NCBI GenBank assembly: GCA_963705105.1
Contig: CAVPIW010000010.1
Location: forward strand, 160,001-224,000
Reading direction: 5' to 3'
Source of the DNA: an uncultured Nitrospiraceae bacterium
GTDB taxonomy: Bacteria; Nitrospirota; Thermodesulfovibrionia; Thermodesulfovibrionales; Dissulfurispiraceae
Length of the DNA stretch: 64,000 nucleotides
Shown: positions 4,360 through 18,105 of the stretch, piece by piece
How the letters are laid out: each line of letters opens with the position of its first letter
How positions within the stretch are numbered: the stretch's first letter is position 1
Notes under the pieces: generated by a model
Database searches by the model: none
Seen by the model: only the letters and a program-made list of their open reading frames with translations
What the model was told of the DNA's origin: nothing
Position numbers and translations under genes: made by a program

Positions 4360-4601
4360 GCGTGAACTGTCCGTTCACAACCGCCGCATTTGCCCTATTC
4401 CCTGAACCTGCGGGCTTTGTTGTGTTGTGCCCAACTCGCCTGGGGACTGAGCCTTGTATGCGGTTTCTGTTCCCCGGATCAAGTCCGGGGCAGGCTCTTG
4501 CCTTCGGCTCGTACTTGTGATAGCATCCATTAGTATGAACACTCTCAGGTTCTCGTACAGGGGACTTTTACCCCATGAGCTCACGCCCATGGCGGGCGTA
4601 T
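4360..4601 (-). mobile_element. Group IIC intron 5' fragment (domain I only, no reverse transcriptase ORF)
   Basis: Minus strand starts (A)TACGCCCGCCATGGGCGTGAGCTCATGGGGTAAAAGTCCC and contains AGCCGAAGGCAAG, GAACAGAAACCGCATACAAGGC and GCAAATGCGGCGGTTGTG, resembling conserved IIC domain I segments. Confidence 0.65.
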
Positions 4602-11518: not shown

Positions 11519-12634
11519 TTAGGTGCTCCTTTCACGGGTGACAGCCCCTGCCGAGTTTTTCTTCAGGAAGCGCTTGAGCCGGAGGCGGTTGAAATACGTA
11601 ACGGGGCTCTCCGATGCCTTCACCTTCCCTTTCAGCACAGCTTCAGGTTCCAAGATCAGGTCAAGGACATGGGCTGTAGAAGTTATCTTGTTGAGAAAGT
11701 TGACGCAGCCTGCGCAGTAGGTGATCACCTTCTTGTCCTTCACCTCTCCCTTCCGTATTTGACCCCATGTCCCGGCCAGTTCCGGTGACAGGAAACCCAC
11801 GGCCCCGCCTTCTCCGCAACAAAGGGTCTTCGTCCTGGAATGCACCATCTCCTCGACCGTGAGCCCGACAGCAGTGACGAGACTCCTCACGGCATCATGG
11901 ATGCCTTCTTCAAACCGCACGGCGCAGGGATCATGAATCATTACGTTACCGCTGACACGGGGCATCTTCGGCAGCTCAAGCTCGGCCATGACTTCATACA
12001 CGGTCCTGACGGAGAGGGGAGCGCCGAAGCGGCTGAATATCTTATGGCAGTTGGGACAGGCGACGAGAACATGCTGCACACCCTGATCCAGGAGGTATCC
12101 TTTCATTTCATCAAACATGATTGTCATGTGTGACTCGCGGCCGAGATCGTGGGAGGGATTGGTGCAGCAGTCGAGGACTATGCCGATGTCTGGAATGTTG
12201 TGTTTTAATTGTTCAAACGCTTTAAGCACCGTGCCGGGCCTCGCTCCGGGCAGGGCGCAGCCGGGGAAAAAGACGGTCCTGCATCCCTGCGGAAGCATGT
12301 AATGCGTGTACCTCCGGGACGTTCCCCTGCGCTCGTATCCGAGAAACGACTCGTGCTCCCGATATGTCCCGAAGCCTCTCGACACTGCCTCCCTGCGCAT
12401 TTCGAGAAACATATCGGAAGGATTGACTTTTACGGGACAGACGGCTGCGCACAACCGGCACAGGCTGCACTCGAAGGGCATCCTGTGGTGTTTTCCCTTA
12501 CCAGGGTCATATGACCCTGCGATGTCTTTCGGCTTGCCGTATTTTCTGAGAAAGGCGCATTCCTTCTGGCAAAGGTCGCACATGATGCAGCCGCTGAAAA
12601 TGCCCTCCAGTTGCTGCCGAAGCGCGAACCTCAT
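11519..12634 (-). CDS. 4Fe-4S dicluster plus cysteine-rich (CCG) domain protein, HdrD/GlpC-like
   Basis: CIMCDLCQKEC, CSLCRLCAAVCP, FFPGC, HDPC, LCCGEGG, YCAGC. Confidence 0.85.
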   Translation of the reverse strand: MRFALRQQLEGIFSGCIMCDLCQKECAFLRKYGKPKDIAGSYDPGKGKHHRMPFECSLCRLCAAVCPVKVNPSDMFLEMRREAVSRGFGTYREHESFLGYERRGTSRRYTHYMLPQGCRTVFFPGCALPGARPGTVLKAFEQLKHNIPDIGIVLDCCTNPSHDLGRESHMTIMFDEMKGYLLDQGVQHVLVACPNCHKIFSRFGAPLSVRTVYEVMAELELPKMPRVSGNVMIHDPCAVRFEEGIHDAVRSLVTAVGLTVEEMVHSRTKTLCCGEGGAVGFLSPELAGTWGQIRKGEVKDKKVITYCAGCVNFLNKITSTAHVLDLILEPEAVLKGKVKASESPVTYFNRLRLKRFLKKNSAGAVTRERST

Positions 12635-12647
12635 GGTCCAGGCACCC

Positions 12648-13148
12648 TCACTCCCTGCAGAGACCTGAAAATATGCTGCGGAGTGTCGCCTCGTCAATCC
12701 TCTTCATGAGGTCCTCCTCGAATGCTTCCGACCATCGTCGCTCCTCCTCGAGAATCAGAAACTCCGAAGGCATATCGTCGGCGTCGTCTTCGGCGCACAT
12801 TTCCTCACTGCCATATCTGTCGATGACGGACTGAAAACCCTTGTTCCTCTCGATCCAGCGCAGGCATTCCTCATGGTTGCCCAGGAAGAGAAGCACAAGC
12901 ACGTTCTCCTGCCTCTGGCAGATCATCCGATAACCGTCAGCAAGGTCATATTTAAGACACTTTTTGATCCGGTGTTCGCCCCATCTCGTCATTCTGCGCG
13001 CATCGGCAATCTCACATATTTCCAGAGACTTGATCCGCTCGATAACCTTTTCCGCCTTTCTTGCCACGACTGCCGATTTGCCCCCCTTCCGCTTGAGGAC
13101 CGCCAGGCTTTTCTCGAACTTCTCATCGCGAATGATCGTCATGTTCAT
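12648..13148 (-). CDS. Hypothetical protein with RelE/ParE-like N-terminal domain and acidic tail
   Basis: Basic N-terminus, KYDLADGYRMI...LLFLGNHEE pattern resembles the RelE fold; family not confirmed. Confidence 0.5.
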   Translation of the reverse strand: MNMTIIRDEKFEKSLAVLKRKGGKSAVVARKAEKVIERIKSLEICEIADARRMTRWGEHRIKKCLKYDLADGYRMICQRQENVLVLLFLGNHEECLRWIERNKGFQSVIDRYGSEEMCAEDDADDMPSEFLILEEERRWSEAFEEDLMKRIDEATLRSIFSGLCRE

Positions 13149-13412: not shown

Positions 13413-13922
13413 CTATTTCTTGCCGACCGGGTAGTCCGCGTCCATCCAGGCCTTGATGCCACCGGGATAGCGGTAGACATTCCTGTATCCAAGCTTCACC
13501 GCCCACATGGCGCCGTTGTGGCTGCGGGTGCACTTGGTGAAGCCGCAGTAAAAGACGATGAGTCTGTCCTTGTTCGGACCGAGGAGCTTCTCGAGTTCCG
13601 CCTTCTTCTTGTCATCGAGACTCGTCATCTCCGGGATGGGGAATTCCATCTGCACCGCGCCGGGGACATGATTCTTTTTATAACTGTCCTCGTAAGGCAT
13701 CGTGTCGACGATGAGCATGTCCTTCTTCTGGTCGATCCAGCCCTTCAATTCCTCCGTTGTGACGATCTTGTAGCCGCCCCTCGCAACCTCGCGAGCGAAG
13801 GTCACGGCGATCTTCTCCGTCTCCAGTTCCTTGGCGCCCCACGCGGCGATCCCGACACCGGACAGGCCGAACACAACGGCGACAACGACGGCAACGGCGA
13901 TACACAGACCTCTCGTGAACAT
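13413..13922 (-). CDS. Exported rhodanese-like sulfurtransferase (single domain)
   Basis: Signal peptide; VDTMP...HVPGA, FYCGFTKCTRS active-site loop, YPGGIKAW. Confidence 0.9.
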   Translation of the reverse strand: MFTRGLCIAVAVVVAVVFGLSGVGIAAWGAKELETEKIAVTFAREVARGGYKIVTTEELKGWIDQKKDMLIVDTMPYEDSYKKNHVPGAVQMEFPIPEMTSLDDKKKAELEKLLGPNKDRLIVFYCGFTKCTRSHNGAMWAVKLGYRNVYRYPGGIKAWMDADYPVGKK

Positions 13923-14481: not shown

Positions 14482-15231
14482 TTACGCGCCGTTCATGGCG
14501 ATACGGGCCGCCCCGAGGGCGGCGAGCATGTCGGGATGACCGGGAACATGCACCCTTGTCCGGAGACGCTCCTCGAACACATGGCGCAGGCAGAGATTCC
14601 GGGCGCAGCCGCCTGCAAAGACCACGTCATCCTTCACACCGACCCTCTGGAGAAGACCGACGACCCTGATCGCGACGGAGCGATGGAGCGCTGCGGCGAT
14701 CGACCCCCTTTCCATCCCCTTTGTGATCAGTCCGATCACCTCCGACTCGGCGAAAACGGTGCACATGCTGTTGATCTTGATGCCGTCATCGCCGGAACCG
14801 CACTGGCTCCCGAATTCGTCCATATCGAAACTTAGGGCCTTCGCCATGATCTCGAGGAACCTGCCGGTGCCGGCCGCGCACCGGTCGTTCATCTCAAAGT
14901 CCGTCACCTGGCCCTCTTCGTTCAGGACGACGACTTTCGTATCCTGTCCGCCGATATCGATGATGGTGCGGCATGTGGGCAGCACCTCGCGTACACCCCT
15001 TGCCACCGCCTTGATCTCCGTGACGGTCCTGACCTCGCCGTGCACCTCAAGGAGGTACCTGCCGTACCCTGTGGCGACAAGCCTGTCCGGCTTTTTCGAT
15101 TCCATGAGCTCCCTGCAGACGGCAAGGGGGTTGTGGCCCGTCTCCCTTCGCTCATAGAGAATGGGACTCCCGCCGTCCAAAAGGGTATATTTGATGTAGC
15201 GGGAGCCGATGTCGATGCCCCCGCAAATCAC
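14482..15231 (-). CDS. CoA-dehydratase activase-type ATPase (BadF/BadG/BcrA/BcrD; DCCP reductase-like)
   Basis: GIDIGSR, ATGYGR, IDIGGQDTK, MNDRCAAGTGRFLE, SMCTVFAESE. Confidence 0.92.
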   Translation of the reverse strand: MICGGIDIGSRYIKYTLLDGGSPILYERRETGHNPLAVCRELMESKKPDRLVATGYGRYLLEVHGEVRTVTEIKAVARGVREVLPTCRTIIDIGGQDTKVVVLNEEGQVTDFEMNDRCAAGTGRFLEIMAKALSFDMDEFGSQCGSGDDGIKINSMCTVFAESEVIGLITKGMERGSIAAALHRSVAIRVVGLLQRVGVKDDVVFAGGCARNLCLRHVFEERLRTRVHVPGHPDMLAALGAARIAMNGA

Positions 15232-16520
15232 GCGTGGACGCCCTTGCCGATCATCTCCAGAAATGCCTCGATCCTCGTCTTGAGCTGGCCGAAATCCTCC
15301 ATGCTGTAGTCCGTCTCGATCCTCAGGAAGGGCAGGTTGATCGCCTCGACGGCGTTTTTCGCGCGGAACGCCTCCACCATGTAAGGCGTGCAGAACTGAA
15401 GAGCGTAGTGGATGACGCCGTCAGCGCCTAGCCGCTTCGCCATTTCGACGATGTTTTCCATACGTTCCGTATTCGGCGTGAAACAGGCGCAGTCGATGGA
15501 GACATACCGGGAGGCGATGTTGTCCAGTCCCTCATCAACGGTCCGGAAGGCCTCGTCGAGGAGGCTTCTGAAATTCCGCTCGCCGACGCAGGACTCCTCG
15601 CCGACGACGACGGCGCCGCTGCCTTCGATGATGGCGTGGACCTTCCAGTTGGGGATCGCCATGGGAGAGCCCGACAGAAGCACCCGCGTCGTTCCCTTCG
15701 GCGCGACGCCCCTTCCTGCGGTGATTCTCAGGTCCAGTTCGTCGCAGAGCTCATTCACCTTGGCCGTAAACCGCAAAGGATCGTCGTAAAAGGAGACCTG
15801 GTTGATGAGCAGTGCGTCGAGCCCGGAAATCGGGGCGGGATCGGCCTTCCTCAATGCGGCAAGCCTCTGGAGGGCCTTTCTCTTTGCGTTGACGATGGCG
15901 GCGGCCTTCGCCAGGTTGTCGAGGGTGATCCGCCTGCCCGTCACCTCCTCGAGTTTTTTCGCGAAACGCTTCACCTCTTTTGCCCAGAGGCGCCTGCTCT
16001 CCTCACCCTTCATGTTCGGCAATTCCATCACGTAGACCTTCTTCGTGATCTCGTCGAAGATCTCATAGGCCTTTTTCTTTCCGTCGCACGTCGTCTCGCC
16101 GACGATGAGGTCCGTCAGCTCGACGTAGGGGCAGAGACCGGCGAGCTTGAAGCCCATGAAGGCCTTGATGAGGGCGCAGGTGTTGCGGGGGATGTACTGC
16201 TCCGCCTCGGACGTGCCGACGTCGGCGCCGGCGCAAAGGCCGATGCAGACGCCGTCGACGGCGAGGACAAGCTCCTCCGGCACGTAGACGCAAAAGGTGC
16301 CGATCACCTTCTTCCCCTGGTCCTTGGCGTTGACGATCTCCTCGATCCTGAGGCCATGGACCTCCGATATGACGAAATCGAAGTACCCCATGCCTTCGGG
16401 CCTGTTTTTCTGGGAGAGATAGATGTTTTTGTACGCGTCGGACAGGACGGCCAGCAGGCCGTTATGGGCCTCGAGATTGAGGCCGATGGAGCTCCACATG
16501 TTTGTATAATCCTTTGACAT
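15228..16520 (-). CDS. 2-hydroxyacyl-CoA dehydratase family protein, double-cubane-cluster (DCCP) type
   Basis: TFCVYVPEE, LCAG, NTCALIK, ETTCDGKKK, EESCVGER, IDCACFTPN, LQFCTPY, ETDYSMEDFGQLKTRIEAFLE. Confidence 0.85.
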   Translation of the reverse strand: MSKDYTNMWSSIGLNLEAHNGLLAVLSDAYKNIYLSQKNRPEGMGYFDFVISEVHGLRIEEIVNAKDQGKKVIGTFCVYVPEELVLAVDGVCIGLCAGADVGTSEAEQYIPRNTCALIKAFMGFKLAGLCPYVELTDLIVGETTCDGKKKAYEIFDEITKKVYVMELPNMKGEESRRLWAKEVKRFAKKLEEVTGRRITLDNLAKAAAIVNAKRKALQRLAALRKADPAPISGLDALLINQVSFYDDPLRFTAKVNELCDELDLRITAGRGVAPKGTTRVLLSGSPMAIPNWKVHAIIEGSGAVVVGEESCVGERNFRSLLDEAFRTVDEGLDNIASRYVSIDCACFTPNTERMENIVEMAKRLGADGVIHYALQFCTPYMVEAFRAKNAVEAINLPFLRIETDYSMEDFGQLKTRIEAFLEMIGKGVHA

Positions 16521-16595: not shown

Positions 16596-16691
16596 TGGAG
16601 GGGGGTAGTGGGAATCGAACCCACCACAGCGTCTTTGACTACCGTGTTACTGGTTTTGCAGACCAGGCGGGGCGCCAGCCCCTTACCCCCC
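16596..16691 (-). tRNA. Atypical tRNA-Cys(GCA) with tRNA-Sec-like architecture (selC*-like)
   Basis: GGGGGGTA-A-GGGGC TGGC GCCCC-GC-CTGGT CTGCAAA ACCAG-TAA-CACGGTAGTC AAA GACGCTGTG-GTGGG TTCGATT CCCAC-TACCCCCC-T-CCA: 8-bp acceptor, 4-nt D loop, GCA anticodon, long variable arm, 5-bp T stem, U73, encoded CCA. Confidence 0.88.
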
Positions 16692-16887
16692 GTGCGCAGC
16701 CTCCCGGCCGCGATTCAGCAGCCCTTCAGAGCGCCATCTTCGGCGCCCTTTTCATGGGCCGACTGCACGGGGAGTGGATATCTGTGTCCAAACCTGCCTG
16801 CATGAGAATTCCATTGTTCACATCAATACCGTTTTTTGTCATGCCTGACCTATTCGTTCGGGGAAAACACAAAGAAGACCCGCGTGA

Positions 16888-17646
16888 TCAGCGCTCCACC
16901 GGCATCCCCGCATCCTTCCAATCCGCGAAGAGTGACTGGTATATGTTCTTGTAATCCATCTTTATGAGCTTCCTGTATGCAAGATAGCTCCTGCTCCCTG
17001 TGTTGCAATAGACAATAATCTTTTTTTCCTTCGGCAGGATGTCCTGGCTGGTCGCAAAGGTCTCGGCGGGGATGTTTAAAGCCGTCGGGATGTGGCCCTC
17101 CTTATACTCTGCCGCGTCTCTCACGTCGACGAGGACGTACCCGTCCTTATTCCCCTCCATGAGAGCTTTGAGTGCGGTGGGGGAGAGCTTTGTCGTTTCA
17201 ATCTTTTTGTCATAGTCCGGACCGGCAACAATCGGGAGGTTCATCTCCTCCCAAACGGGGAAGCCCTCACTGTAGATGCGAATATTTTTGTACCCGAGAG
17301 CTGCGGCCTTCACGGCGGTACGTTTGCTCTTCCCGCACTTGACACCGTTGCAGTAAAAAACGAGCGGATTCTCCTTGTTCTCAGGAAGCAGGGAACGCTG
17401 CTCGTCAAACTTCTTCTCCGGGATGTTGATCGACCCGACGATGTGGGCCTCGCTAAATTCCTCTTCAGTGCGGGCGTCGACAAGCGCGAAAGGTGTCTTC
17501 TGTTCCATCATTGCCTTGAGTTCAGATGTGGTGATGAGGGGATAGTCCGCCGCCGCCGGACGCCGGTCCGATGTGACCACAACAGCGAAGACGATAAGGA
17601 AAATAATGAATGCACGTCCCAATTGAGCAACACTACGTTGTATCAC
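16888..17646 (-). CDS. Exported tandem rhodanese-domain protein
   Basis: Signal peptide; two domains with VDAR...HIVGS/FYCNGVKCGKS and VDVR...HIPTA/VYCNTGSRS. Confidence 0.9.
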   Translation of the reverse strand: MIQRSVAQLGRAFIIFLIVFAVVVTSDRRPAAADYPLITTSELKAMMEQKTPFALVDARTEEEFSEAHIVGSINIPEKKFDEQRSLLPENKENPLVFYCNGVKCGKSKRTAVKAAALGYKNIRIYSEGFPVWEEMNLPIVAGPDYDKKIETTKLSPTALKALMEGNKDGYVLVDVRDAAEYKEGHIPTALNIPAETFATSQDILPKEKKIIVYCNTGSRSYLAYRKLIKMDYKNIYQSLFADWKDAGMPVER

Positions 17647-17779
17647 ACGACCTCCAAATAGATGTTTTTGCAGAAATTGGGAAATTTTATAATAGTCTTT
17701 TTCTATAACTCCAATACATTATTCCGATGTGTTATGCATTATGCATAGAAAATCACGATTGAAGACAAATATGTGTCCA

Positions 17780-18105
17780 CACCCCTGTCAAAAATATTGT
17801 GCAGCCGGACTTTGAAAAACGAGGATAGGGTGCGGTTTCTGAGGCATAATTCACGGTTGCCTTGCTCGAAAAGACGGTGCAAAACGCCTGAAAAACAGCC
17901 TCGGTGACAGCGTCAGTAAAAGGTTCATCGTTTATTCTCACGTCTGACTGCGATGGTCTGTACGGGAAGGCAGAGGTTTCGCAGCACCGATGCTTTTCAG
18001 CGCATTCGCCCCGTCTTTCCTGAGATCTCATTGCGGTGATAAGGGTTTATTTTGCAAAGAAAGCATGCCCTATCCTCGTATCGCATTATTTTAGGCATCA
18101 TGAAG
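17780..18105. repeat. Intergenic repeat related to 32760-32985 and 46590-46890
   Basis: Shared blocks GAGGATAGGGTG.GGTTTCTGA, GGGAAGGCAGAGGTTTCGCAGCACCGATGCTTTTC, CCTGAGATCTCATTG, GCATGCCCTATCCTCGT. Confidence 0.8.

What the first reader, a model, noticed from the sequence alone, without database searches (positions are those of the whole stretch)
16596..16691. tRNA-Sec-shaped tRNA with cysteine identity embedded in a sulfur-transfer operon
Seen: a 96-nt cloverleaf with 8-bp acceptor plus 5-bp T stem, 4-nt D loop and a roughly 9-bp variable arm, all tRNA-Sec-like, but with anticodon GCA and discriminator U73, the CysRS identity elements. It lies co-oriented between the rhodanese and DCCP genes, 75 bp before the DCCP start, with no selA/selB/selD in the window. 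Known: canonical tRNA-Cys has a short variable loop and 7/5 fold; rare selC*-type tRNA-Cys species have been reported in anaerobes. Inference: a dedicated tRNA that could act as a non-ribosomal Cys/sulfur carrier, support tRNA-dependent Cys synthesis from Ser using operon-supplied sulfur, or sense Cys to regulate the operon.
Basis: partly seen in the sequence, partly recalled or inferred. Interest (0 to 1): 0.9.

Follow-up and report, generated by a model that had tools for sequence, protein, structure and literature searches.

The report
Selenocysteine-shaped cysteine tRNA among selenium genes
This is a real cysteine tRNA built like a selenocysteine tRNA, a rare class first described in 2017, and in this bacterial group it sits among selenium-handling genes rather than in a plain sulfur operon.

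Summary
Window 16691..16596 (minus strand) encodes a 96-nt tRNA with an 8-bp acceptor stem, 5-bp T stem, 4-nt D loop, long variable arm, GCA anticodon, U73 and encoded CCA. Compensatory changes occur at 26 of 30 pairs across 78 distinct homologues. It belongs to the published selC* tRNA-Cys / tRNAReC class (PMC5389517), so it is a new member of a known kind.

The genome also has a normal 74-nt tRNA-Cys, a tRNA-Sec, one SelA, one SelB, one CysRS and a Sec-containing SelD.

The surroundings are the added value. In 79 distinct related loci the tRNA lies beside:
- a selenium-associated LysR regulator (27 loci)
- YedF (27)
- the double-cubane reductase (13)
- a SelB-like gene (11)
- Sec-type SelD (7)

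Thirty matched canonical tRNA-Cys loci show none of these. A T-N11-A box precedes the tRNA in 32 of 77 loci and precedes the rhodanese gene here.

The best reading is a cysteine-for-selenocysteine recoding tRNA inside a selenium regulon. Function is inferred, not shown.

The parts
16596..16691 (-). tRNAReC / selC*-type tRNA-Cys(GCA). It has an 8/5 acceptor/T fold, U73 and an encoded CCA.
   Evidence: ARAGORN; Rfam tRNA-Sec 55.9 bits; sequence; MFE fold; covariation in 26 of 30 pairs
17692..17706 (.). ATAG-N7-CTAT (T-N11-A type) operator-like box, 46 nt upstream of the rhodanese GTG. On the operon strand it reads TATAG-N7-CTATT, as upstream of the tRNA in relatives.
   Evidence: One of 26 such boxes in the 4.23-Mb genome. 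The same box lies within 200 nt upstream of the tRNA in 32 of 77 related loci.
16888..17646 (-). Tandem-rhodanese protein (252 aa) with a hydrophobic N-terminus. It is the first gene of the putative operon.
   Evidence: Pfam Rhodanese x2, 1.4e-40. Best NCBIfam hits are seleno_TsoB and rhodanese-related (seleno)protein, both below cut-off.
15228..16520 (-). Double-cubane-cluster (8Fe-9S type) anaerobic reductase, DCCP, 430 aa. It is single-copy in this genome.
   Evidence: Pfam HGD-D 1.8e-120; NCBIfam NF040772 482.8 bits against a cut-off of 350; PDB 6ENO/7YYL E 1e-154; single tblastn hit
14482..15231 (-). BcrAD/BadFG-type ATPase, the activase/reductase partner of DCCP
   Evidence: Pfam PF01869 2.3e-43; TIGR00241 203.9 bits
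13933..14469 (-). MauE/DoxX-family membrane protein
   Evidence: Pfam PF07291 2.6e-27
13413..13922 (-). Single-domain rhodanese with a hydrophobic N-terminus
   Evidence: Pfam Rhodanese 3.3e-18. Best NCBIfam hit is seleno_TsoB, below cut-off.
12648..13148 (-). 166-aa hypothetical protein with weak ParE-like similarity, below Pfam's cut-off. It recurs near the tRNA in four other loci.
   Evidence: Pfam 21.9 bits against a cut-off of 24.4; tblastn hits in L033, L038, L043, L093; nearest Atlas clusters are unnamed
11519..12697 (-). HdrD-like CCG/4Fe-4S dicluster protein
   Evidence: Pfam CCG and Fer4_8. Best NCBIfam hit is diclust_near_Sec, 216 bits, below the cut-off of 530.

Best explanation
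The gene encodes a tRNAReC (selC*-type tRNA-Cys) of the Nitrospirota type.

Shown here:
- It has the body of a selenocysteine tRNA (13-bp acceptor/T helix in 8/5 form, 4-nt D loop, long variable arm).
- It carries the cysteine identity marks GCA and U73.
- It is conserved with compensatory changes.
- It coexists with a normal tRNA-Cys, a tRNA-Sec, SelA, SelB, one CysRS and a Sec-containing SelD.
- In this bacterial order it lies in a neighbourhood of selenium-associated genes, behind a conserved T-N11-A operator-like box.

Inferred, from the published work on the class:
- CysRS charges it with cysteine.
- The long acceptor helix hands it to SelB rather than EF-Tu.
- SelB delivers Cys to UGA codons followed by a SECIS hairpin. 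Selenoproteins, including Sec-type SelD itself, can then be made as Cys forms when selenium is short.

Inferred from context:
- In this genome it is transcribed as the second gene of a rhodanese, tRNA, double-cubane reductase, activase, MauE, rhodanese operon.
- That operon is controlled in trans by one of the genome's two selenium-associated LysR regulators.
For: Class membership:
- ARAGORN tRNA-Cys(GCA); Rfam tRNA-Sec 55.9 bits; 8/5 fold in the MFE structure.
- 89.5% of cells paired, 26 of 30 pairs with compensatory change, 0 of 500 shuffles as high.
- The class is defined in passages of PMC5389517: U73, GCA or UCA anticodon, tRNA-Sec-like body, found in Nitrospirae among other phyla, and a complete Sec apparatus in all selC*-containing genomes.

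Companions in this genome:
- A 74-nt tRNA-Cys and a tRNA-Sec(UCA).
- One SelB, one SelA, one CysRS at 456 bits, and SelD with one in-frame TGA at G-U-AAK.
- The tRNA is extra, not a replacement. Canonical tRNA-Cys is found in 278 of 301 genomes of the order, against 143 of 301 with a match to this tRNA.

Context in 79 distinct loci:
- LysR_Sec_metab (NF040786) 27
- YedF (TIGR03527) 27
- DCCP 13
- SelB-like 11
- activase 8
- Sec-SelD 7, all 7 with the active-site TGA
- tandem rhodanese 6
- at least one of these in 54 of 79

Matched control: 26 of the 30 best tRNAReC loci have such a neighbour, against 0 of the 30 best canonical tRNA-Cys loci, with the same 1.5-kb flanks.

Operator box:
- ATAG-N7-CTAT lies within 200 nt upstream in 32 of 77 loci, 16 of them at -50 to -53.
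- Control loci hold 3 boxes in 83.8 kb.
- In this genome one of 26 boxes lies 46 nt before the rhodanese start.
- Two NF040786 regulators are present, at 282 and 288 bits.

Literature:
- UGA recoding with Cys by tRNAReC, as cited in PMC13582414 (passages).
- The 8-bp acceptor stem weakens EF-Tu binding and is the SelB determinant (PMC7609411, passages).
- LysR_Se/HrsM governs Cys isoenzymes by selenium status in Methanococcus (PMC5322559, passages).
Against: - No expression data. No RNA run holds the stretch.
- Charging, SelB binding and recoding were not and cannot be tested here.
- The anticodon is GCA, not UCA, so reading UGA needs a G34-A mismatch. That this works is taken from a secondary citation. 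The primary paper (Vargas-Rodriguez 2018) is not held.
- This genome has no second SelB, although 5 of 5 checked relatives with a SelB-like gene next to the tRNA have two.
- Here no LysR gene adjoins the tRNA, and no motif is shared with the selD, selA, selB or yedF upstream regions.
- The single box is a post hoc match. Five other AT-rich boxes in the genome lie by unrelated genes.
- 25 of 79 loci show none of the seven selenium-linked neighbours counted (LysR, YedF, DCCP, activase, SelB-like, SelD, tandem rhodanese); many of these have short flanks.
- Co-occurrence of DCCP and the tRNA across genomes is weak: both 45, DCCP only 32, tRNA only 98, neither 126, odds ratio 1.8, p 0.03, uncorrected for kinship.
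Confidence: 0.6

Rival explanations
1. It is simply a second cysteine isoacceptor. CysRS charges it, EF-Tu carries it, and it reads ordinary UGC/UGU codons. The selenocysteine-like body would be an evolutionary leftover.
For: The GCA anticodon pairs perfectly with Cys codons, and U73 plus GCA are the CysRS marks. The genome has only one SelB and no dedicated SelB*.
Against: A canonical tRNA-Cys already exists, and is found in 278 of 301 genomes of the order. The 8-bp acceptor stem is kept by compensatory changes in all 8 pairs, and that feature lowers EF-Tu affinity about 100-fold in tRNA-Sec (PMC7609411). The gene is tied to selenium genes and not to translation genes, 26 of 30 loci against 0 of 30 controls.
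Confidence: 0.15
2. One reading: the tRNA is a scaffold or carrier for chemistry done by the operon. This could be tRNA-bound Ser or Cys converted with rhodanese-supplied sulfur or selenium, or Cys handed on non-ribosomally. Alternatively it senses cysteine to regulate the operon.
For: The tRNA is physically embedded between sulfur/selenium-transfer genes. A small HAD-family gene with weak SerB-like similarity (21.7 bits against a cut-off of 144) follows the SelB-like gene in 7 related loci. The function of the class is called unclear in print (PMC13582414).
Against: No SepRS is present. No operon protein falls in a family known to act on aminoacyl-tRNA. The neighbours vary between genomes (YedF, DCCP, SelB-like or GCAxxG directly downstream), which fits shared regulation better than one fixed enzyme partner. 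CysRS is present for direct charging. No T-box or other leader was reported by Rfam in the window.
Confidence: 0.1
3. It is a selenocysteine tRNA with a sense anticodon. SerRS serylates it, SelA converts it, and it inserts Sec at UGC codons, as reported for tRNA-Sec(GCA) species.
For: It has a Sec-like D arm and long variable arm, and scores above Rfam's tRNA-Sec threshold. SelA and SelB are present.
Against: U73 rather than G73, and G73 is the SerRS mark (PMC7609411). The 3' ends that ARAGORN printed for related copies read U73, and the full-length rows of the alignment end in TCCA. The published class was shown to be cysteinylated (PMC5389517). A regular tRNA-Sec(UCA, G73) exists in the same genome.
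Confidence: 0.05
4. It is a decaying or silent duplicate of selC with no present function.
For: No expression data. A 5'-truncated copy exists in a relative, L205 2093-2176.
Against: All stems are kept by compensatory changes. In a near strain there is one change in 96 nt against 10 substitutions and 1 deletion in the 196-bp spacer. The encoded CCA and U73 are kept.
Confidence: 0.03

Closest known systems
selC* tRNA-Cys / tRNAReC (Mukai et al. 2017, PMC5389517, passages and supplement legends seen; Vargas-Rodriguez et al. 2018, RNA Biol, not held, known here through citations and recall)
   Same: tRNA-Sec-like body, U73, GCA anticodon, presence beside a complete Sec apparatus, occurrence in Nitrospirae. 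The supplement has a 'Nitrospirae type' alignment (legend of Fig. S11).
   Different: It has the 8/5 form, not the 8/4-with-bulge form of the delta-proteobacterial species studied in 2017. This genome has no selB* or cysS* downstream. Here it lies inside a rhodanese/double-cubane operon. I found no mention of that linkage in the text or supplement held.
Bacterial tRNA-Sec (selC, Rfam RF01852)
   Same: 8-bp acceptor, 5-bp T stem, 4-nt D loop, long variable arm. The T arm is identical to that of this genome's own tRNA-Sec.
   Different: Anticodon GCA, not UCA. U73, not G73. D stem of 5 bp plus an A.G pair, not 6 bp. It scores lower than the true selC, 55.9 against 69.2 bits.
Canonical bacterial tRNA-Cys
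   Same: GCA anticodon and U73.
   Different: The canonical form is 74 nt with a 7/5 fold, short variable loop and normal D loop. It is present separately in this genome.
allo-tRNA (PMC5389517)
   Same: Sec-like D arm and long variable arm.
   Different: allo-tRNAs have a 12-bp acceptor/T helix (8/4 or 9/3) and serine identity. This one has 13 bp (8/5) and cysteine identity.
LysR_Se / HrsM control of Cys isoenzymes in Methanococcus (as summarised in PMC5322559)
   Same: Works alike, if the model is right: a selenium-sensing LysR regulator switches the cell to cysteine versions of selenoproteins.
   Different: There the Cys versions are separate genes. Here the same genes would be read with Cys through a special tRNA. 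The regulator-operator link is inferred from position only.
SepRS/SepCysS tRNA-dependent cysteine synthesis (PMC8762117)
   Same: Cysteine made or carried on a tRNA with GCA and U73.
   Different: No SepRS in this genome, and CysRS is present.

Membership tests
tRNAReC / selC* tRNA-Cys | 13-bp acceptor/T helix of tRNA-Sec type (8/5, or 8/4 with bulge) | tested here: met
   8 + 5 bp in the sequence and the MFE fold. All 8 acceptor pairs and 4 of 5 T pairs show compensatory change.
tRNAReC / selC* tRNA-Cys | Long variable arm and Sec-like D arm (long stem, 4-nt loop) | tested here: met
   Variable arm 6+3 bp. D stem 5 bp plus A.G, with a UGGC loop. The sixth D pair is A-U, U-A or U-G in 36 of 78 distinct rows of the alignment.
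tRNAReC / selC* tRNA-Cys | Discriminator U73 | tested here: met
   T before the encoded CCA, as in nearly all aligned full-length rows.
tRNAReC / selC* tRNA-Cys | Anticodon GCA or UCA | tested here: met
   GCA at positions 33-35. Invariant in 91 homologues, though these were selected by a pattern that contains it. Unchanged in an independent contig.
tRNAReC / selC* tRNA-Cys | Coexists with canonical tRNA-Sec and SelA, SelB, SelD | tested here: met
tRNAReC / selC* tRNA-Cys | Cysteinylated by CysRS | not testable with these tools
   One CysRS gene is present. Charging needs an assay.
tRNAReC / selC* tRNA-Cys | Bound by SelB and able to recode UGA/SECIS with Cys | not testable with these tools
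   One SelB is present. Binding and recoding need experiments.
tRNA-Sec (selC) | UCA anticodon and G73 (serine identity) | tested here: not met
   GCA and U73.
Canonical tRNA-Cys | 7/5 fold, short variable loop | tested here: not met
   8/5 fold and a 22-nt variable arm.
allo-tRNA | 12-bp acceptor/T helix (8/4 or 9/3) | tested here: not met
   13 bp.
Double-cubane cluster protein (neighbour gene) | Match to NF040772 above cut-off, and to the solved DCCP | tested here: met
   482.8 bits against a cut-off of 350. E 1e-154 to 6ENO/7YYL. The 7-Cys motif was not checked residue by residue.
LysR_Se regulon (operon as a whole) | Regulator binds the ATAG-N7-CTAT box and responds to selenium | not testable with these tools
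   Only position and conservation of the box and presence of two NF040786 genes.

The most novel reading that the evidence does not exclude
The tRNA and the rhodanese/double-cubane module are two arms of one LysR_Se-controlled response to selenium scarcity.

In the first arm, the tRNA keeps selenoproteins, including Sec-type SelD, being made with cysteine.

In the second arm, the exported rhodaneses, the MauE/DoxX membrane protein and the ATP-driven double-cubane reductase scavenge and reduce a selenium species to selenide for SelD. The substrate might be elemental or protein-bound Se(0), whose very low reduction potential I recall but did not check.

This would give the double-cubane enzymes, whose natural substrate is unknown, a physiological role. 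It would also give tRNAReC a regulatory logic.
Probability: 0.25. Interest if true: 0.8.

Novelty: new member of a known kind. Interest (0 to 1): 0.45.

Why it matters
The tRNA class is already described, so this copy alone adds little. The useful part is the context.

In one bacterial order the tRNA is regularly placed behind a selenium-associated LysR gene and a conserved operator-like box. It sits next to YedF, SelB-like, Sec-SelD or the double-cubane reductase. That turns two open questions into testable ones:
- When is tRNAReC used?
- What do double-cubane reductases reduce in vivo?

Both can be approached with selenium-shift experiments, regulator binding assays and enzyme assays with selenium substrates.

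It also supports the published statistical link between double-cubane proteins and SelD (bioRxiv 10.1101/2022.07.06.499078) with direct gene adjacency. I could not read the 2018 tRNAReC paper, so this context may already be in print.

Tried and rejected
- Expression: no RNA holder is listed for the stretch, so nothing can be said about transcription or processing.
- Shared operator with selD: this lead came from an earlier finding. No 12-mer with at most 1 mismatch is shared between the tRNA's upstream region and those of selD, selA, selB or yedF in this genome. Single near-matches to the tRNA-Sec and rhodanese upstream regions are at chance level.
- Other ATAG-N7-CTAT boxes in this genome: most of the 26 lie within long open frames of ordinary base composition. 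The genes around four of the AT-rich ones are unrelated: radical SAM, transposase, alkyl sulfatase, LptF/ALAD.
- A promoter-like site between the rhodanese and the tRNA (16842..16813) is weak, 9 of 12, and the scan found no more sites than shuffles give.
- Literature: the Vargas-Rodriguez 2018 paper is not held. The supplement of PMC5389517 has no occurrence of rhodanese, hydroxyglutaryl, benzoyl-CoA, sulfurtransferase, neighbor or operon, but its figures are pictures.
- Earlier findings by sequence gave nothing.
- In-frame TGA, meaning possible Sec, was sought in YedF, rhodanese, DCCP, GCAxxG, TGase and LysR neighbours. Only SelD shows a convincing one.
- Phyletic co-occurrence of DCCP with the tRNA is weak, so I do not claim that either needs the other.
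- Loci dropped before the neighbour counts: ARAGORN called no long tRNA-Cys(GCA) in 4 of 30 loci and in 16 of 80 loci. Of the 118 pattern matches, only 80 were fetched.

Full report
**What is there.** ARAGORN finds a single tRNA in the 64-kb window, tRNA-Cys(GCA), at 16596..16691 on the minus strand. Rfam's selenocysteine-tRNA model matches the same place at 55.9 bits, against a gathering score of 47, with E 1.3e-8. The sequence and its minimum-energy fold (-48.5 kcal/mol) agree on the structure:
- an 8-bp acceptor stem (GGGGGGUA/UACCCCCC)
- a 5-bp T stem
- a 5-bp D stem plus an A.G pair, closing a UGGC tetraloop
- a 5-bp anticodon stem with loop CUGCAAA
- a 6+3-bp variable arm with one bulge
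- U73 and an encoded CCA

The strand is minus, and the gene is co-oriented with its neighbours as stated: 196 bp after a tandem-rhodanese gene and 75 bp before the double-cubane gene.

**Is it real?** I collected homologues in two ways.
- A BLAST of the tRNA over 301 genomes of the same order gave a match in 143. 30 loci were fetched.
- A pattern scan of the species-representative genome collection gave 118 stretches. 80 loci were fetched. Most carry titles of Nitrospirota or Thermodesulfovibrionales MAGs, and a few are from Cloacimonadota, Chloroflexota and others.

ARAGORN called a long tRNA-Cys(GCA) in 26 of the 30 and in 64 of the 80 loci. The 20 loci without a call were left out. The resulting 91 tRNAs (78 distinct rows) were aligned.
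- On my 8/5 structure 89.5% of cells pair, against 46-61% with slid partners.
- 26 of 30 pairs show compensatory changes.
- No shuffle of 500 reaches the observed values.

Contigs from four DNA runs of three studies cover the gene. In the one contig whose differences are all listed, only D-loop C18U falls in the tRNA, while the upstream spacer carries 10 substitutions and a deletion. The anticodon is GCA there too.

**What it is.** The combination of a Sec-like body with U73 and GCA is the published selC* tRNA-Cys class, later called tRNAReC.
- Passages of PMC5389517 define it, place it in Nitrospirae among other groups, and state that all genomes with it have the full Sec apparatus.
- The supplement has a 'Nitrospirae type' alignment (legend only).
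- PMC13582414 (passages) cites the 2018 paper for UGA recoding as Cys with either anticodon, and says the division of labour with tRNA-Sec is unclear.
- I could not read the 2018 paper.

This genome fits the class:
- a separate 74-nt tRNA-Cys(GCA) and a 98-nt tRNA-Sec(UCA, G73)
- one SelB
- one SelA
- one CysRS
- a SelD with an in-frame TGA at G-U-AAK
- no SepRS
- no second SelB and no second cysS

In the order, the canonical tRNA-Cys is found in 278 of 301 genomes. The special tRNA is therefore an addition, not a replacement.

**The surroundings.** Pfam, NCBIfam and PDB searches give this minus-strand operon:
- tandem rhodanese
- the tRNA
- double-cubane reductase (NF040772, 482.8 bits; E 1e-154 to 6ENO/7YYL)
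- its BcrAD-type ATPase
- a MauE/DoxX membrane protein
- a second rhodanese
- a 166-aa hypothetical protein
- an HdrD-like CCG protein

Both rhodaneses begin with hydrophobic segments, visible, so they may be exported. Their best NCBIfam hits are selenoprotein-named rhodanese families, though below cut-off. The CCG protein's best hit is a family named 'near Sec', also below cut-off.

**Is the link conserved?** I called ORFs within 4 kb of each tRNA, clustered them and annotated cluster representatives. After removing 12 duplicate loci, 79 distinct loci remain. Many have short flanks. Neighbour counts:

| Neighbour | Loci of 79 |
|---|---|
| Selenium-associated LysR regulator (NF040786, 280 bits against cut-off 250) | 27 |
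| YedF selenium-metabolism protein (TIGR03527) | 27 |
| Double-cubane reductase | 13 |
| SelB-like gene (TIGR00475) | 11 |
| Activase | 8 |
| Transglutaminase-like | 8 |
| SelD | 7 |
| Tandem rhodanese | 6 |
| C_GCAxxG_C_C protein | 6 |
| At least one of the seven selenium-linked neighbours (LysR, YedF, DCCP, activase, SelB-like, SelD, tandem rhodanese) | 54 |

- The LysR gene is nearly always upstream on the same strand.
- Of the 13 reductase loci, 8 have it directly downstream on the same strand, 4 divergent and 1 convergent.
- All 7 SelD genes carry the active-site TGA.
- The usual order is LysR, tRNA, then a variable cargo.

As a matched control, 26 of the 30 best tRNAReC loci have a selenium-linked neighbour, against 0 of the 30 best canonical tRNA-Cys loci of the same order with the same 1.5-kb flanks. 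In 5 of 5 genomes checked with a SelB-like gene beside the tRNA, a second SelB homologue lies elsewhere. A SelB* therefore exists in part of this order, but not in this genome.

**The DCCP link in detail.** The reductase is single-copy here. Across the 301 genomes, 77 have it at E no higher than 1e-90.

| | tRNA match | no tRNA match |
|---|---|---|
| DCCP present | 45 | 32 |
| DCCP absent | 98 | 126 |

The odds ratio is 1.8 with p 0.03, not corrected for kinship. This is a weak co-occurrence, and one family has the reductase in 9 of 22 genomes with no tRNA match in any of the 22.

Where both are present the picture differs. They lie within 1.5 kb of each other in 19 of 45 genomes from six families, are apart in 22, and are of unknown position in 4. 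The link is physical and recurrent, but not obligatory.

**A shared operator-like box.** Upstream regions anchored on the tRNA 5' end show a palindromic ATAG-N7-CTAT motif, which is a T-N11-A box of the kind LysR regulators bind (the binding rule is recalled knowledge).
- An exact box lies within 200 nt upstream in 32 of 77 loci: 16 at -50 to -53, and 16 at -81 to -150.
- The control tRNA-Cys loci hold 3 boxes in 83.8 kb.
- In relatives the box also precedes the transglutaminase-like gene when that gene comes before the tRNA. It also lies between divergent reductase and tRNA genes.
- In this genome there are 26 boxes, about 33 expected from base composition. One sits at window 17692-17706, 46 nt before the rhodanese GTG, reading TATAG-N7-CTATT on the operon strand as in relatives.
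- The genome has two NF040786 regulators, one next to selD.

This suggests that here the rhodanese gene lies between operator and tRNA, and that the whole operon belongs to the same regulon. The match is post hoc and single. Other AT-rich boxes lie by unrelated genes.

**How this fits the literature.**
- Lin et al. 2015 (PMC5322559, passages) defined YedF and the LysR_Se subfamily as selenium-linked.
- Their STRING table for Slackia lists a 2-hydroxyglutaryl-CoA dehydratase subunit, an activase and a transglutaminase-like enzyme among the partners. That is the same set seen here.
- They also summarise that the archaeal LysR_Se (HrsM) controls Cys isoenzymes according to selenium.
- Haft 2022 (bioRxiv 10.1101/2022.07.06.499078, passages) reports that 955 of 970 strong NF040772 proteins are in SelD-containing assemblies, and proposes a role in processing selenium compounds.
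- In the texts I could see, none of these mentions the tRNA (searches; finds).
- Earlier notes of this scan record the same tRNA class in other genomes, one beside selenium genes and one sharing a motif with selD.

**Mechanism.** Shown here:
- structure, identity marks and conservation
- the companions in the genome
- the selenium-gene context and the upstream box

Inferred from the published class:
- charging by CysRS
- preference for SelB because of the 8-bp acceptor stem (PMC7609411)
- delivery of Cys to UGA/SECIS sites

Inferred from context:
- co-transcription with the rhodanese/double-cubane operon
- control by LysR_Se
- use when selenium is scarce, which would also let the Sec-type SelD be made at all

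Against this reading: the GCA anticodon mismatches UGA, there are no expression data, and the function of the class is still called unclear in print.

The rivals are an ordinary isoacceptor, a carrier or scaffold for operon chemistry, Sec at UGC codons, and a relic. They are weighed in their own sections, and none is excluded by computation alone.

**Verdict.** The object is a new member of a known kind.

The context is the interesting part:
- the LysR_Se gene upstream
- the operator-like box
- the neighbours YedF, SelB-like, Sec-SelD and DCCP
- adjacency to the double-cubane reductase in 19 of 45 genomes that have both

This may be new, subject to the 2018 paper that I could not read.

Noticed in passing
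L205 4303-4425 (-), L206 7863-7988 (+), L207 8189-8318 (-): Same-family genomes carry tRNAReC-like genes of about 123-130 nt. The acceptor, D, anticodon and T arms match this tRNA, at 88-98% identity in the two matched arm segments of L205 and L207. The variable region is about 50 nt and folds into a branched arm. ARAGORN does not call them. In L205 and L206 one follows a LysR_Se gene and an ATAG-N7-CTAT box.
   Followed up: partly
L205 2093-2176 (-): A 5'-truncated copy of the tRNA that matches from position 10 only and lacks the 5' acceptor strand. It lies before a box, a transglutaminase-like gene and YedF.
   Followed up: partly
G291:C15:91091-92215: A second double-cubane homologue in a related genome has one in-frame TGA within a full-length match (473 bits). 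It may be a selenocysteine-containing form.
   Followed up: no
window 12648-13148 (-): A 166-aa hypothetical protein inside the operon. Its ParE-like similarity is below Pfam's cut-off. Homologues lie within a few kb of the tRNA in L033, L038, L043 and L093, and the nearest Atlas clusters are unnamed proteins of Thermodesulfobacteriota.
   Followed up: partly
window 17753-18031 (-): A 92-aa ORF just upstream of the operon's box. It has several 50-84% identical copies elsewhere in the genome (C10, C11, C6) and no family match. It may be a repeat or mobile element that rearranged this locus.
   Followed up: partly
window 4364-4524 (-): Rfam group II intron D1-D4-3 match, 56 bits against a gathering score of 32.
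   Followed up: no
7 distinct related loci, e.g. L077 434-916 (-), L061 5424-5903 (-): A small HAD-family gene of about 160 aa follows the SelB-like gene next to the tRNA. Its only family hits are weak (SerB-like, 21.7 bits against a cut-off of 144). Its role beside a tRNA and an elongation factor is unexplained.
   Followed up: no
L125 7985-8079 and 12987-13081 (-): Two tRNAReC copies 5 kb apart on one contig. One is followed by a SelB-like gene.
   Followed up: no
window 16674: Near strains in three of four runs carry G>A on the plus strand, which is C18U in the D loop. This turns UGGC into UGGU, the tRNA-Sec consensus loop.
   Followed up: yes
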